Virus record (IMG/VR): IMGVR_UViG_3300032248_000400
Coordinates: 9,599 to 73,598 of that record
Direction: 5' to 3' (one strand)
DNA from: a virus
Taxonomy: Duplodnaviria; Caudoviricetes
DNA: 64,000 bases
In this document: piece after piece, positions 35,143 through 40,051 of the stretch
Numbering within the stretch: the stretch's first letter is position 1
Layout of the letters: each line of letters opens with the position of its first letter
Made by a program: the position numbers and the translations under genes
Notes under the pieces: model-generated
The model's database searches: none
Seen by the model: the letters and a program-made list of their open reading frames with translations, nothing else
Told to the model about the DNA's origin: nothing

Positions 35143-35211
35143 TTTGGCGGATTGAAATATTTATGGTATATTTGTATTCATCCGTTAAATAATCGGATTA
35201 GTTCTTTAAAA
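35143..35211 (+). promoter_or_regulatory. tmRNA promoter with hairpin and boxA-like element
   Basis: TTTG 35143-N20-TATATTTG 35167; hairpin ATCCG...CGGAT; GTTCTTTAAAA 35201-35211. Confidence 0.7.
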
Positions 35212-35214
35212 TAT

Positions 35215-35626
35215 GGGGATGTTTGGAATCGATTGCTATGCAAAAGATAGTACCACATGCAGAGATATCGTATTAGTTCTCTTTAAATCTATACGAAACA
35301 ATAACTGACGCTAAGTCAACAATGACCTTCGATGACCTTATGGCATTCGTAGGTGCGGATTACGCTGTAGCAGCCTAGTCCAACTCGGGTGAGTAACCTA
35401 GGAACAGAACTACTCTGAGCGTTCACGATCGACTCATTAAATAAAGATAGTGGAAATGGTTTTCTTTGTTTCATAAAACAAAGTGGTGGACTCGGCCCAT
35501 AAAACGGTCAACCCTATACGGTGCAGACCATTTCGTTGGTATCAACAAAATGGCCAGTACTAAGCATGTGAATCTCTGGTATTATAGTTTCTTAGTAAGA
35601 CGCGAGTTCGAATCTCGCCATCTCCA
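35215..35626 (+). ncRNA. ssrA: tmRNA, tag (A)DAKSTMTFDDLMAFVGADYAVAA
   Basis: Acceptor stem GGGGAUG/CAUCUCC with G3:U wobble and discriminator A; T-arm GCGAG-TTCGAAT-CTCGC; tag ORF 35307-35378 after ATAACT. Confidence 0.93.
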
Positions 35627-35729
35627 CGAATATTATTTAAGTATGGTAATCCTACTAACACAACTAGCGGACTTGAATAATAAATAAAAAAAGATTTGGT
35701 GAATTGAAAAATTTATCCTATCTTACATT

Positions 35730-35811
35730 TAAGATGGTTGATTGAAGCCAACAACTAATAAAACCGATTGTGTGACCCCGTAAGGAATAAAGCCGGATAT
35801 CGAACATCTTA
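35730..35811 (+). ncRNA. Candidate small structured RNA 1
   Basis: Own promoter (TTTG 35695-N20-TATCTTAC); closed by TAAGATG/CATCTTA; internal GTTG/CAAC and CC-GTAA-GG hairpins. Confidence 0.5.
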
Positions 35812-35852
35812 AAAAAAGATTTGGTAGATTGAAAAAAATATCTTATCTTTAT

Positions 35853-35910
35853 AAAGATTCAGAAATAAAGTAGTTGATTGGTTCGCCAGAAAACAAAATT
35901 GAGAATCTTT
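35853..35910 (+). ncRNA. Candidate small structured RNA 2
   Basis: Own promoter (TTTG 35820-N20-TATCTTTA); closed by AAAGATTC/GAATCTTT; shares GTTGATTG with RNA 1. Confidence 0.4.
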
Positions 35911-35979
35911 AAAAATAAATTTGGTAGATTGAAAAAGATTTCGTATCTTTAATTCTAACAAAGAAGTTCTTTAACATAA

Positions 35980-36858
35980 TGAATAATTTACATAGTGAGT
36001 TCGTCTCACATAGTAAATAACCGCCGCCTATGGTGGTTAAATAAACTACGAAAGTAGGATAAAGTGAGTGTATTGGTTTAATACATTTGCGGCTACTCTC
36101 CCCGTAAGGAGAGATTAGCTTGAGTAGGCAAGTGGGGTATCACTTGGGCTTTGTACGAAAGGGTAACACTATATCGGAAGAGTTTGAGTGACCGGGGTAA
36201 GTAGATACTTCGGTTGAGTTCGGAAGAACAATAAGAATAACCCATAGAATTTATGTAAGAAATCAGAACTTAATCCCTTCTGACTATTGCGTGATTCAAT
36301 ATTAGAGTGGTCTTAACATCAAGCTATCCGAAAGGACGTAAGATAAGACTGTGTACAGGTGGTGCTGTTACTATCCTTTTATAAAGTGTACCAACGCTTA
36401 TAAATGAAGATGACTCAAAATATGGTGATAGGGATATCACATCGGGTAGTTTAGTATTTCGTTTTTCAAAAGAAAACGGAGCTTGGGGCAAACCACTATC
36501 TGAATCCATCTACAAACCACAAACTTTTATCAAATGGAATTTGATTATTCAATAACAATAAAAGCATAAGTGTTTGCCAGTTACGGACGAAAGGTGTGTA
36601 CATAGTAGGGAGTTGTTCTCTGCCACGATACCTCCGCAAGAGGTCTGTGATTCTATCTAAAAGTTTCTAATTCCGCAAGAACTAATCAGGCTGCGAGGCT
36701 TGAGGAAATGGAGTAAATAGAGAGTAAGACGTAACTCAAAGACTGATAGTCTCAAATCATCCACATTGTATCGGTACTACTCAAAAGGTAGTGGATAAGA
36801 AAGGAAACAAATAATCTTTCTAAAGTTGGTACACCTGAAGAGGTAATCTCACTCTTTT
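35980..36858 (+). ncRNA. Large ornate structured RNA, GOLLD-like (boundaries approximate)
   Basis: ~880 nt with no credible ORF; own promoter and boxA; several GNRA-capped hairpins; perfect 10-bp long-range helix 36386-36395/36825-36834; abuts a tRNA. Confidence 0.7.
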
Positions 36859-36862
36859 ATTA

Positions 36863-36933
36863 GCGGAATTAGTGTAACGGTAGCACACTTACCTTCCAGG
36901 TGAGAGGATGGAGTTCAATTCTCTGGTCCCGCT
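36863..36933 (+). tRNA. tRNA-Gly(TCC)
   Basis: Cloverleaf with CT-TCC-AG loop, TTCAATT T-loop, discriminator U; one acceptor mismatch; CCA not encoded. Confidence 0.85.
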
Positions 36934-36949
36934 CTATATGATATAAGTT

Positions 36950-37626: not shown

Positions 37627-37902
37627 ATGAAAGAATTTAAAGATTTAATATTTAAGACACGTTTTACAGGCGAAGGTATAATTTCCAGATTACAATTTGA
37701 TAATGGATACGGAGTATCGGTAGCAAAACACGATAGTTCCTATGGCGGAAAGCTAGGACTTTACGAATTAGCAGTATTGGATAGTTATGGTGAGTTACAT
37801 TACGATAACCCTGTTGCTAAAGGTGATGTTGTTGGATATTTACGTGAGGAAGATGTAACGGATGCAATGGCACTTATTCAGAAATTTGAACCATTGCAAT
37901 AA
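37627..37902 (+). CDS. Hypothetical phage protein
   Basis: FDNGYGVSV...SYG...LYELAVL. Confidence 0.6.
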   Translation: MKEFKDLIFKTRFTGEGIISRLQFDNGYGVSVAKHDSSYGGKLGLYELAVLDSYGELHYDNPVAKGDVVGYLREEDVTDAMALIQKFEPLQ

Positions 37903-37907
37903 ACTAT

Positions 37908-37994
37908 GCCCCGGTGGTGAAATTGGTAGACACGCAGGACTTAAAATCCTGTTCGCCGAAAAAGCGAGTGCGGGTTCAAGTCCCGCTTGGGGCA
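37908..37994 (+). tRNA. tRNA-Leu(TAA)
   Basis: GCCCCGG/TTGGGGC acceptor, CAGGA-CTTAAAA-TCCTG anticodon arm, long variable arm, GCGGG-TTCAAGT-CCCGC T-arm. Confidence 0.95.
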
Positions 37995-38000
37995 CAATAT

Positions 38001-38347
38001 ACTATCGTTCTTTGACATATAAGGAGACACACATTATGGAAACATTATCATTCATTTTAGGGATAGCGTTGGTGGTGGTTATTGCTCTTGCAATAGTTGC
38101 TGTTTATGCTTTCGTTAAGGTAGGAAAATTAGAAAACCAAATTAGAGATTTTGATAACAGAGAGCAAGGTATTTATCGAGCACTTAGTGATCAAGCTGAT
38201 TGGATAAGTAAACGAATTGATGAAACTGAACGTAATATCAACGACTTGGAAAAAGAAGTATTTTCTCAATTAGATTCACGTTTAGACAAATTAGAAAACA
38301 AATTAATTAATAACAAAAAATAAAAATTAAAGTCAAAGAACGATAGT
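38001..38347. repeat. Perfect 16-bp inverted repeat flanking one gene
   Basis: ACTATCGTTCTTTGAC 38001-38016 and GTCAAAGAACGATAGT 38332-38347. Confidence 0.85.
38036..38323 (+). CDS. TM plus coiled-coil protein
   Basis: AAGGAG upstream of ATG 38036; the track's 37862 start overlaps tRNA-Leu. Confidence 0.65.
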   Translation: METLSFILGIALVVVIALAIVAVYAFVKVGKLENQIRDFDNREQGIYRALSDQADWISKRIDETERNINDLEKEVFSQLDSRLDKLENKLINNKK

Positions 38348-38923: not shown

Positions 38924-38981
38924 AATATGGGCATTAGTGGATATGCCAAAAAGAAAAATAGATGTTTTTCATCCACTTATC

Positions 38982-39053
38982 GCAGGTATAGTACAATTGT
39001 AAGTGCTCTGATATTCCAAATCAGAAAAGGTCAGTTCGATCCTGACACCTGTT
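38982..39053 (+). tRNA. Atypical or degenerate tRNA-Gly(TCC)
   Basis: T-arm GTCAG-TTCGATC-CTGAC, anticodon arm CTGAT-ATTCCAA-ATCAG; acceptor only 6 bp; D-loop lacks GG. Confidence 0.65.
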
Positions 39054-39072
39054 CAAATCTAACTATAATGCA

Positions 39073-39568: not shown

Positions 39569-40051
39569 ATGGAAAAGAAAAAAATATATTTGTATTTAGA
39601 TGATGTCAGAATTCCAACCGAAGGTGAGTGGGAAGTTGTCCGAAACTATGATGAGTTTGTGAAACATATACTTTTGAACGGATTGGAAAACTATGAAGCA
39701 ATATCACTAGATCACGATTTAGGTGAAGGTGCTATGGTTGAATATTATAGTAATGTTAAACCAAACTATGAATTAGATTATAAACGTATACCGGAAAAAA
39801 CAGGAATGGATTGTGTACGATTTTTAATATTGGAGGTTATGAATAAAAATATATCATTACCAAAAATATATGTACATTCAGCCAATCCAATAGGAGCAGC
39901 AAATATGATGGGATATATAAATAATTATTTCAGAAATAATGGATTACCTGAGGATTGTGTAAAAGTGAAGATTGCCCATACCTATTCAAAGGAAATGAGT
40001 TTAGAAGAAAGAGAAAATAGATATAAAATTATTAACAAATATAAAAAATAA
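39569..40051 (+). CDS. Cyclic-phosphate-processing receiver-like domain protein
   Basis: YLDDVR, ISLDHDLG, TGMDC, VHSANPIG. Confidence 0.7.
   Translation: MEKKKIYLYLDDVRIPTEGEWEVVRNYDEFVKHILLNGLENYEAISLDHDLGEGAMVEYYSNVKPNYELDYKRIPEKTGMDCVRFLILEVMNKNISLPKIYVHSANPIGAANMMGYINNYFRNNGLPEDCVKVKIAHTYSKEMSLEERENRYKIINKYKK

What the first reader, a model, noticed from the sequence alone, without database searches (positions are those of the whole stretch)
35920..36858. ~880-nt ornate non-coding RNA (GOLLD-like) with its own promoter and boxA, abutting tRNA-Gly
Seen: no credible ORF in an otherwise densely coding genome. Promoter TTTG 35920-N20-TATCTTTA and AGTTCTTTAACA at 35965. Hairpins include TAACCGCC/GGTGGTTA (36018-36039), CTAC-GAAA-GTAG (36046-36057), CTCTCC/GGAGAG (36096-36113), TCC-GAAA-GGA (36327-36336), two GCAA loops (36636, 36675), a GCGA loop and a 3' AAGAG/CTCTT hairpin. 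A perfect long-range helix pairs GTGTACCAAC (36386) with GTTGGTACAC (36825). Known: GOLLD RNAs are ~800 nt, phage-associated, often next to tRNAs and of unknown function. Inference: this is a GOLLD member or a new giant RNA class in a Bacteroidota phage.
Basis: partly seen in the sequence, partly recalled or inferred. Interest (0 to 1): 0.85.

Follow-up and report, generated by a model that had tools for sequence, protein, structure and literature searches.

The report
GOLLD phage RNA with boxA leader
This gene-free stretch encodes a genuine copy of GOLLD, a known giant phage RNA that builds protein-free cages and has no known function; it is an ordinary new member of that family, but it sits behind the promoter and boxA signal that Bacteroidota use for their ribosomal RNA genes.

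Summary
Window 36442-36855 matches Rfam GOLLD (RF02032) over the whole model at 270.7 bits (threshold 150). The upstream half, 36018-36441, is the GOLLD 5' domain. It aligns to the 5' end of env-38, the GOLLD solved by cryo-EM as a 14-mer cage, and to more than 100 IMG/VR phage contigs. On 64 non-redundant relatives, 95% of cells in 228 predicted pairs are paired (40-43% in slid controls) and 166 pairs show changes on both sides.

The promoter (TTTG-N20-TATCTTTA) and the boxA-like AGTTCTTTAACA are real and conserved. 79 of 82 distinct relatives carry GTTCTTTR before the core. The same 9-mer stands on the sense strand of Bacteroidota 16S leaders (33/75, antisense 0) and 16S-23S spacers (18/71, antisense 1). 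It also precedes the phage's tmRNA and many phage tRNAs.

The "perfect long-range helix" is not conserved (26% of cells paired). It competes with a covarying local helix.

Verdict: a new member of a known family, probably made through rRNA-type antitermination. The function of GOLLD remains unknown. This scan has already reached the same reading on other phage genomes. I found no paper linking GOLLD and boxA.

The parts
35920..35951 (+). Proximal promoter P3 of Bacteroidota type: -33 TTTG (35920-35923), 20-nt spacer, -7 TATCTTTA (35944-35951)
   Evidence: Sequence. It is one of three 43-nt repeats and the pattern gives 3 matches vs 0 expected. 67 of 79 box-bearing relatives have TAnnTTTR upstream of the box; its spacing to the box peaks at 34-36 nt and is 22 nt here. 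Bacteroidota 16S promoters show the same TAnnTTTG.
35684..35915 (+). Two further copies of the same promoter (35695-35726, 35820-35851). Each is followed by a hairpin-closed unit (35728-35813 and 35848-35915) with no T-run after it. They are read here as tandem upstream promoters and leader units that may also feed GOLLD.
   Evidence: Close relatives carry 2-4 such promoters with the same conserved small units, and in L138 unit B lies between the last promoter and the box. No terminator-like site was found here. No Rfam match.
35965..35976 (+). boxA-like element AGTTCTTTAACA in the transcribed leader
   Evidence: 79/82 and 52/53 relatives carry it; the same 9-mer is on the sense strand of Bacteroidota 16S leaders (33/75 vs 0) and of 16S-23S spacers (18/71 vs 1). 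It also precedes the tmRNA and phage tRNAs.
35987..36017 (+). Leader hairpin (TTTAC..GTGAG-TTCGT-CTCAC..GTAAA) between the box and the GOLLD core. Its size varies in the family.
   Evidence: Sequence. The aligned hairpins of close relatives change on both sides, TGAG/CTCA to TAAC/GTTA or TAGA/TCTA (columns 200-290). It lies upstream of the env-38 construct start.
36018..36441 (+). GOLLD 5' domain (the cap of the cage in env-38)
   Evidence: It aligns to the first 116 nt of the env-38 construct. nhmmer finds it in 111 loci. Helices 3-22 covary.
36442..36858 (+). GOLLD 3' domain (the ring of the cage in env-38). It includes the variable A-rich linker at about 36497-36568 and the terminal hairpin 36838-36857.
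   Evidence: Rfam RF02032, 36442-36855, 270.7 bits, E 4e-76. Helices 23-43 covary. The loop at 36673-79 switches GC/CG among relatives, like L21a.
36863..36934 (+). tRNA-Gly(tcc), starting 5 nt after the element's end at 36858. It is probably co-transcribed, so RNase P cleavage at its 5' end would release the GOLLD 3' end.
   Evidence: ARAGORN and Rfam. 27 of 96 relatives have a same-strand tRNA 1-18 nt after GOLLD. The processing step is inferred.
35143..35629 (+). tmRNA gene with the same leader plan: TTTG (35143-46), N20, TATATTTG (35167-74), hairpin 35180-35198, AGTTCTTTAA 35200-35209, mature 5' end at 35215

Best explanation
Window 36018-36858 (+) is a full-length GOLLD RNA of the env-38 architecture: a 5' cap domain at 36018-36441 and a 3' ring domain at 36442-36858. 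It lies in the stable-RNA region (tmRNA, tRNAs) of a large uncultured phage whose host is probably a Bacteroidota bacterium.

Shown here: family membership, conservation and covariation of both domains, the conserved promoter and box, and the identity of the box with the rRNA-operon boxA of Bacteroidota.

Inferred: host RNA polymerase starts at one to three tandem TTTG/TAnnTTTG promoters and transcribes the boxA (35965-35976). NusB/NusE and the other Nus factors then assemble on the boxA as they do on rRNA operons. This makes the long untranslated transcript resistant to Rho and may assist its co-transcriptional folding. The 3' end is released by RNase P at the abutting tRNA-Gly, or at the terminal hairpin plus U-run.

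Inferred by homology with env-38 and the S. agalactiae GOLLD: the RNA then self-assembles into a protein-free homo-oligomeric cage, most likely a 14-mer, during lytic growth. What the cage does is unknown. The company it keeps (tmRNA, tRNAs, rRNA-type control) points to a role in translation or stable-RNA handling, but this is the weakest step.
For: -: RF02032 at 270.7 bits vs 150, full model.
- the env-38 construct (PMC12286853, supplementary file 1) aligns from window 36017 onward. The core is 841 nt against 833 nt for env-38.
- at least 119 IMG/VR contigs hold the 5' motif, and 111 loci hold full-length relatives.
- 228 pairs, 95.2% of cells paired vs 40-43% in slid controls, 166 pairs changed on both sides vs 72-95, covariation score 0.572 vs about 0.1, 0 of 500 shuffles as high.
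- the L21a-like loop switches GC/CG as reported for the cage bridge B8.
- the box is in 79 of 82 relatives and a -7 box in 67.
- an independent sample gives 52 of 53.
- 16S leaders 33/75 sense vs 0 antisense.
- 16S-23S spacers 18/71 sense vs 1 antisense, and 0 inside 16S.
- the same box precedes the tmRNA and 42 of 667 phage tRNA/tmRNA genes, with 0 antisense, against a 0.5% background.
- the source is an IMG/VR virus record.
- PMC12286853 and PMC12990946: GOLLD forms 14-mer and 12-mer cages.
Against: - Transcription start, 3' end and abundance are therefore unmeasured.
- The boxA function rests on sequence identity and position only. No Nus binding or Rho assay exists for Bacteroidota phages.
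- The exact 9-mer is found in only 44% of the sampled 16S leaders; variants were not counted.
- The consensus structure was derived from the same alignment on which the pairs were counted, which inflates the gap to the controls somewhat.
- Oligomer number depends on small structural differences within the family (10-, 12- and 14-mers are reported), so '14-mer' is a guess.
- In L. brevis a GOLLD was reported dispensable for phage production (as cited in PMC7567579).
Confidence: 0.85

Rival explanations
1. The GTTCTTTRA box is not an antitermination signal. It is either part of the GOLLD fold (a 5' strand pairing with GAGUA..GC at 36122-36129) or a processing or stability signal for stable-RNA precursors.
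For: RNAalifold pairs the box with 36122-36129 at 94-96% of cells (helices 1-2). In phage tRNA and tmRNA genes the box starts only 10-30 nt before the mature 5' end, which would also suit a processing signal.
Against: Helices 1-2 show no change on both sides, so they carry no information. The env-38 RNA that folds into the 14-mer starts downstream of the box. The same box precedes unrelated RNAs (tmRNA, tRNAs, 16S, 23S), where that pairing partner is absent. Its leader-plus-spacer distribution in rrn operons is that of boxA.
Confidence: 0.15
2. Only the proximal promoter (35920-35951) drives GOLLD. The two upstream promoter copies make two separate tiny RNAs (35728-35813 and 35848-35915) with functions of their own.
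For: Each unit is closed by its own stem (I2 and I5). Unit A (GGTTGAAGCC...AAAGCCGGATA) is conserved with its own promoter in at least six close relatives.
Against: No T-run or terminator-like site follows either unit. In L138 unit B lies between the last promoter and the box, so there it is part of the GOLLD leader. Tandem promoters are the rule in rrn operons (general knowledge).
Confidence: 0.4
3. The 10-bp complement 36386-36395 / 36825-36834 is a real long-range helix that clamps the 5' domain to the 3' end.
For: It is a perfect 10-mer complement (I13). It appears in both the MFE and the centroid fold of this one sequence.
Against: Only 26% of cells pair in 64 relatives. The closest relatives (70-82% identity) keep 4-8 of the 10 pairs in register, with no complementary run longer than 6. 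Both arms sit in conserved, covarying local helices: helix 21 with its ACCAA loop, and helix 39, which is the Rfam pairing 36768-74 / 36826-32. In env-38 the two domains fold separately (PMC12286853). A second perfect 10-mer pair occurs by chance in the same 1.3 kb (I14).
Confidence: 0.04
4. It is a new class of giant RNA, a self-splicing intron, RNase P, or a stretch of degraded coding sequence, and not GOLLD.
For: None beyond the absence of ORFs.
Against: The gathering-threshold scan of all 4227 Rfam families gives only GOLLD here. There is homology to env-38 in both halves and strong RNA-type covariation.
Confidence: 0.01

Closest known systems
GOLLD env-38 RNA (833 nt, marine metagenome; D7 14-mer nanocage, PDB 9MEE; Kretsch et al. 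2025, PMC12286853)
   Same: The 5' domain starts the same way (ATGGCCGC.TATGGTCGT.AAATAAA.TACGAAAGTAGGATAAAGTG...). The 3' domain starts the same way (UCGGGUAGUU.AGUAUU). The length is nearly equal (841 vs 833 nt). It has the two-domain plan, a variable linker after the first 3'-domain helix, a GC in the L21a-like loop, and a neighbouring tRNA.
   Different: This is a different phage and the sequence has diverged. It carries clade-specific insertions (CTCTCC..GGAGAG hairpin at 36096-36113; TCC-GAAA-GGA arm at 36315-36345). The oligomeric state is untested. The published construct lacks the promoter, boxA and leader described here.
Streptococcus agalactiae GOLLD (700 nt, 12-mer, PDB 9L0R; 3' domain 10-mer, 9LMF; reviewed in PMC12990946)
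   Same: Same family, with a conserved 3' domain (P14-P27) that oligomerises.
   Different: The Sag RNA lacks P9, P11a-c and P21b and is about 140 nt shorter. The window RNA is of the long env-38 type. The host phylum also differs.
rrn operon antitermination leader (boxB-boxA-boxC; NusA/B/E/G, SuhB; E. coli boxA GCUCUUUAACAA, from memory)
   Same: AGTTCTTTAACA differs from the E. coli boxA core at one position. It equals the motif found here in Bacteroidota 16S leaders and 16S-23S spacers. It lies just after a strong host-type promoter. Tandem promoters are present. Many relatives, and the tmRNA leader, have a small hairpin before the box.
   Different: What follows is a phage RNA, not rRNA. 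No boxC-like element was recognised. In this window the hairpin follows the box instead of preceding it. No biochemical evidence exists.
ROOL RNA (phage and prophage RNA forming 6- or 8-mer cages)
   Same: A large ornate phage-associated RNA near tRNAs that forms a cage. Some human-gut ROOL rows in the supplement of PMC12286853 begin UGUUCUUUGAUAUG, which is a boxA-like 5' end.
   Different: The sequence and fold are unrelated. There is no Rfam ROOL match here.
Mycobacterium tRNA-array GOLLD (Morgado et al. 2020, cited in PMC12990946)
   Same: A GOLLD embedded among tRNA genes on a mobile element.
   Different: There the array is cellular or plasmid-borne and a tRNA-Phe sits inside J13/15. Here the element is on a phage, the linker holds no tRNA, and the subtype was not found in 185,579 species genomes.

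Membership tests
GOLLD RNA (Rfam RF02032) | Covariance-model score at or above the curated gathering score, over the whole model | tested here: met
   270.7 bits vs 150, E 4.3e-76, model 1-416/416, window 36442-36855. The same value comes from the genome search.
GOLLD RNA (Rfam RF02032) | Conserved, covarying multi-helix 3' domain | tested here: met
   Helices 23-43 on 64 relatives are mostly 92-100% paired, and most pairs change on both sides. Caveat: the structure was derived from the same alignment.
GOLLD RNA (Rfam RF02032) | A large structured 5' domain upstream, giving about 800 nt in all | tested here: met
   36018-36441 aligns to the env-38 5' end, is found in 111 loci, and helices 3-22 covary. 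Total length 841 nt.
GOLLD RNA (Rfam RF02032) | Phage or prophage location, often beside tRNA genes | tested here: met
   IMG/VR virus record. The tmRNA lies about 390 nt upstream of the core and tRNA-Gly about 5 nt downstream. 27 of 96 relatives abut a tRNA.
GOLLD RNA (Rfam RF02032) | Palindromic dinucleotide in loop L21a that covaries GC/CG (intermolecular bridge B8 of the cage) | tested here: inconclusive
   The loop at 36673-36679 reads CCGCAAG. Among relatives, GC forms (CCGCAAG, TCGCAAG) occur 43 times and CG forms (..TCGAA) 13 times. The assignment of this loop to L21a rests on position arithmetic from env-38 numbering, not on a full alignment.
GOLLD RNA (Rfam RF02032) | Self-assembly into an RNA-only homo-oligomeric cage | not testable with these tools
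   Known for env-38 and Sag GOLLD (PMC12286853, PMC12990946). It needs mass photometry or cryo-EM of this transcript.
rrn-type boxA antitermination leader | Sequence equal to the boxA of the host phylum's rRNA operons | tested here: met
   GTTCTTTRA is on the sense strand of 33/75 Bacteroidota 16S leaders, 0 antisense. The extended match is AGTTCTTTGACATATTG vs AGTTCTTTAACATAATG.
rrn-type boxA antitermination leader | In rrn operons the motif occurs both in the leader and in the 16S-23S spacer | tested here: met
   Spacer region 18/71 sense, 1 antisense, 0 in the 16S body. This shows that the comparison motif behaves as boxA.
rrn-type boxA antitermination leader | Lies in the transcript, shortly downstream of the promoter, on the sense strand | tested here: inconclusive
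   The position fits: the -7 box ends at 35951 and the box starts at 35966. The spacing is conserved in 67 relatives. The transcription start was not measured, because no RNA data were obtainable.
rrn-type boxA antitermination leader | Binds NusB-NusE and confers Rho-resistant elongation | not testable with these tools
   Needs biochemistry or genetics. No phage NusG was found in this 73.6-kb fragment (13.7 bits, below the cut-off).

The most novel reading that the evidence does not exclude
Large Bacteroidota phages run a stable-RNA regulon (GOLLD, tmRNA, tRNA blocks, small leader RNAs) on their host's rRNA transcription programme: host-type tandem promoters plus boxA. The Nus-modified polymerase, which acts as an RNA-folding chaperone for rRNA, would then be what allows an 840-nt RNA to fold and assemble into cages in vivo. 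GOLLD would be a phage counterpart of a ribosomal-type stable RNA that acts on translation together with the phage tmRNA and tRNAs. I found no paper that links GOLLD with boxA, although this scan has noted the link on several other phage genomes.
Probability: 0.35. Interest if true: 0.6.

Novelty: new member of a known kind. Interest (0 to 1): 0.35.

Why it matters
GOLLD is one of the largest bacterial-world RNAs whose function is still unknown. Its cage structure was solved only in 2025, and from in-vitro transcripts that start at the folded core.

This locus adds no new class. Together with more than 100 relatives, it shows what lies in front of the core in the natural gene: a host-type promoter at fixed spacing and the host phylum's rRNA boxA, both shared with the phage's tmRNA and tRNA genes.

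That yields a testable account of how such a long untranslated RNA escapes Rho and gets made in quantity. It also puts GOLLD in the same expression class as rRNA, tRNA and tmRNA, which narrows the search for its function towards translation. In practice it supplies natural 5' boundaries and promoters for expressing GOLLD in Bacteroidota hosts.

Tried and rejected
- The long-range helix was rejected.
- The RNAalifold pairing of the box with 36122-29 is uninformative because there is no compensatory change. It is also unnecessary, since env-38 lacks the box.
- The Rfam scan at E <= 1 of 35630-36030 found nothing, so the leader and the small units match no described family.
- Scanning 185,579 species genomes with the 5'-domain motif gave 0 matches, so there are no prophage copies and no direct host assignment.
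- The literature searches for a Bacteroidota boxA paper gave nothing usable. The GOLLD + promoter search returned 740 papers, none of the 12 listed relevant.
- GOLLD + antitermination hits were unrelated. GOLLD + boxA returned 0 papers.
Pfam gives no match, so it was not used.
- No phage NusG was found in the record.
- My first regular expression for the 16S 3' end caught only 2 operons. I replaced it with a distance window.
- One row of alignment A3 (L205) had a wrong minus-strand range and should be ignored.
- No covariance model of the whole 5' domain was built because it exceeds the tool's size limit.

Full report
**What is there.** The stretch 35960-36858 holds no plausible gene. The only ORFs are four minus-strand frames of 35-61 aa. 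A gathering-threshold scan of the whole window against all 4227 Rfam families gives five matches. These are GOLLD (RF02032) at 36442-36855, a tmRNA at 35215-35629 and three tRNAs (ARAGORN agrees). The GOLLD match has 270.7 bits against a threshold of 150, E 4e-76, and covers model positions 1-416 of 416. The window is part of a 73.6-kb IMG/VR virus record that CheckV rates at about 33% complete. Neighbouring genes are typical accessory genes of a large phage. They encode a non-specific endonuclease, an AdoMet decarboxylase, an FkbM methyltransferase, a cREC_REC protein, a MoxR/CbbQ ATPase, an ATP-dependent DNA ligase, a GP88-family protein and a thymidylate synthase.

**The 5' half.** The Rfam model covers only the universally conserved 3' domain. 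In GenBank phages, blastn finds two huge uncultured phages (LR756502 of 642 kb, LR745206 of 635 kb). One matches the 5' half and the other the 3' half. Both carry a full Rfam GOLLD next to tRNAs and align with the window along the whole element. After removal of near-duplicates, 64 sequences of 58-82% identity to the window were aligned.

The supplement of Kretsch et al. 2025 (PMC12286853) prints the env-38 construct used for the 14-mer cryo-EM structure. Its first 116 nt align to the window from 36017 onward with high identity. The start of its 3' domain (UCGGGUAGUUAAGUAUU) matches window 36442. The folded core is therefore 36018-36858, 841 nt against 833 nt for env-38, with the 5' 'cap' domain at 36018-36441 and the 3' 'ring' domain at 36442-36858.

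**Covariation.** An RNAalifold consensus for each domain was counted on the 64 sequences.
- There are 228 pairs in 43 helices.
- 95.2% of cells are paired, against 40-43% when the 3' partners are slid by 1-3 columns.
- 166 pairs have changes on both sides, against 72-95 in the slid controls.
- The covariation score is 0.572 against about 0.1.
- None of 500 shuffles reaches any observed measure.

Both domains contribute. The structure was derived from the same alignment, which favours it, but the margin is very large and the 3' part agrees with the curated Rfam structure. The single sequence folds with z = -3.6. The CTCTCC/GGAGAG hairpin and the TCC-GAAA-GGA arm are insertions shared only with close relatives.

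**The long-range helix.** The complement 36386-95 / 36825-34 exists and appears in the single-sequence MFE and centroid folds. It is not conserved.
- Only 26% of its cells pair in the 64 relatives.
- The closest relatives keep 4-8 of the 10 pairs in register, and their longest complementary run is 4-6.
- The 3' arm belongs to a local helix (36768-74 with 36826-32 in the Rfam alignment). That helix is kept through compensatory changes: GTATCGG/TTGGTAC, GAATTGG/CTGGTTC, GTTAGGA/ATCTAAC and GACTTGA/ACAGGTC (helix 39, 62).
- The 5' arm is a small conserved hairpin with an ACCAA loop (helix 21).
- A second perfect 10-mer complement in the same 1.3 kb shows that such pairs arise by chance here (I14).

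**Promoter and leader.** The promoter is TTTG-N20-TATCTTTA at 35920-35951. It is the last of three near-identical 43-nt copies. It has the -33 TTTG / -7 TAnnTTTG form known for Bacteroidota (from memory: Bayley et al. 2000). The same form is seen in the Bacteroidota 16S promoters fetched (TACATTTGCAGCC, TATCTTTGCACCC and others). Of 82 distinct upstream regions of relatives, 79 carry GTTCTTTR 20-130 nt before the core. 67 of those have a TAnnTTTR box upstream, with spacing sharply peaked at 34-36 nt. An independent sample drawn through a 3'-domain motif gives 52 of 53, plus 3 of 5 more divergent GOLLDs.

**Is the box a boxA?** Four lines of evidence say yes.
- The window's AGTTCTTTAACA differs at one base from the E. 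coli rrn boxA core GCTCTTTAACA (from memory).
- I fetched about 120 mostly Bacteroidota 16S loci through the CF319a probe site. The exact 9-mer GTTCTTTRA stands on the sense strand in 33 of 75 leaders and in none on the antisense strand. It is mostly 70-130 nt before 16S, with a second copy right after the promoter in some.
- In the 16S-23S spacer it occurs in 18 of 71 operons on the sense strand, in 1 on the antisense strand, and never inside 16S. There it reads AGTTCTTTGACATATTG, against AGTTCTTTAACATAATG in the window. Leader-plus-spacer distribution is the hallmark of rrn boxA.
- The box is not specific to GOLLD. The tmRNA gene of this window has the same plan: TTTG, N20, TATATTTG, a hairpin, AGTTCTTTAA, then the mature 5' end 6 nt later. 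In relatives the box sits just upstream of tRNA genes. Over all fetched phage loci, 42 of 667 distinct tRNA/tmRNA genes have it within 60 nt upstream on the sense strand and none on the antisense strand, against a background of 0.5%.

RNAalifold's suggestion that the box pairs with 36122-29 has no compensatory support (helices 1-2). That pairing is also unnecessary, because the env-38 RNA folds without the box.

**How it most likely works.** Host polymerase starts at the proximal promoter, and possibly also at the two upstream copies. Neither small unit is followed by a terminator, and in L138 one of these units is part of the GOLLD leader. The nascent boxA recruits NusB-NusE and the remaining Nus factors, as on rRNA operons. 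This protects the 0.9-kb untranslated transcript from Rho and may chaperone its folding. These steps are inferred. The 3' end would be set by RNase P at tRNA-Gly, which begins 5 nt after the element's end at 36858. 27 of 96 relatives have such an abutting tRNA, mostly tRNA-Met. Where no tRNA abuts, the terminal hairpin plus U-run would set the end.

By homology the RNA then assembles into a protein-free cage, with the 5' domains forming the caps and the 3' domains the rings. The variable A-rich linker (about 36497-36568) would point inward (PMC12286853). The loop at 36673-79 shows the GC/CG switch reported for the inter-subunit bridge B8. The biological role is unknown. Published ideas are encapsulation of tRNAs, ribosomes or other cargo (PMC12286853, PMC12990946). 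In L. brevis the RNA accumulates in lytic growth but was dispensable (as cited in PMC7567579).

**Host.** The motif scan of 185,579 species genomes found no copy of this GOLLD subtype, so there is no prophage evidence. The Bacteroidota assignment rests on the promoter type and on the boxA match. A suggested T9SS marker was not confirmed by Pfam. No phage NusG is present in this fragment.

**Novelty.** The RNA is a new member of a known family, and an ordinary one. The rRNA-type leader lies outside the published GOLLD boundaries. I found no paper that holds both GOLLD and boxA. This scan has already reached the same reading on several other phage genomes, and I reached it here independently before reading those notes. 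Expression data could not be obtained.

Noticed in passing
window 35143-35629: The phage tmRNA (tag DAKSTMTFDDLMAFVGADYAVAA by ARAGORN) has the same promoter, hairpin and AGTTCTTTAA leader as GOLLD. The box ends 6 nt before the mature 5' end.
   Followed up: partly
window 35728-35813 and 35848-35915: Two hairpin-closed small units each sit behind a copy of the GOLLD promoter. Unit A (GGTTGAAGCC...AAAGCCGGATA) and unit B (AAGATTC..GTAGTTGATTGG..GAATCTT) recur with their promoters upstream of GOLLD in close relatives (L235, L173, L170, L076, L134, L138). A third unit (CTTATAGGYGATGAAAGATACTCGG) recurs in others. None matches Rfam.
   Followed up: partly
window 38007-38015: A further sense-strand GTTCTTTGA lies 12 nt after tRNA-Leu. 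It is followed by AAGGAGA and an ATG at 38037 that opens a short hydrophobic frame. The listed ORF 37862-38323 overlaps the tRNA and is probably not the real gene.
   Followed up: no
PMC12286853, supplementary file 5 (ROOL alignment): Several human-gut ROOL sequences begin UGUUCUUUGAUAUGAAAAUG. This is a boxA-like motif at the 5' edge of the other cage-forming phage RNA.
   Followed up: no
window 39569-40051: A protein with a cREC_REC domain (cyclic-phosphate processing receiver, PF20274, 75 bits) is encoded about 500 nt downstream of the last tRNA of the cluster (tRNA-Gly 38981-39054). This may be a link to RNA repair.
   Followed up: no
L002 (LR756502, 642 kb) and L003 (LR745206, 635 kb): Two of the largest deposited phage genomes carry full GOLLD RNAs of this type next to tRNAs (Rfam 275 and 287 bits). 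The records have no annotation.
   Followed up: partly
relatives in loci L123-L236: Where a tRNA abuts the GOLLD 3' end (27 of 96 loci) it is tRNA-Met in most cases, as for env-38, which was found beside a tRNA-Met. The window has tRNA-Gly instead.
   Followed up: partly
Genome-contig collection: The env-38-type 5'-domain motif has no exact match in one genome for each of 185,579 prokaryote species, while it saturates the viral-contig scan. This GOLLD type seems confined to free (probably virulent) phages.
   Followed up: partly
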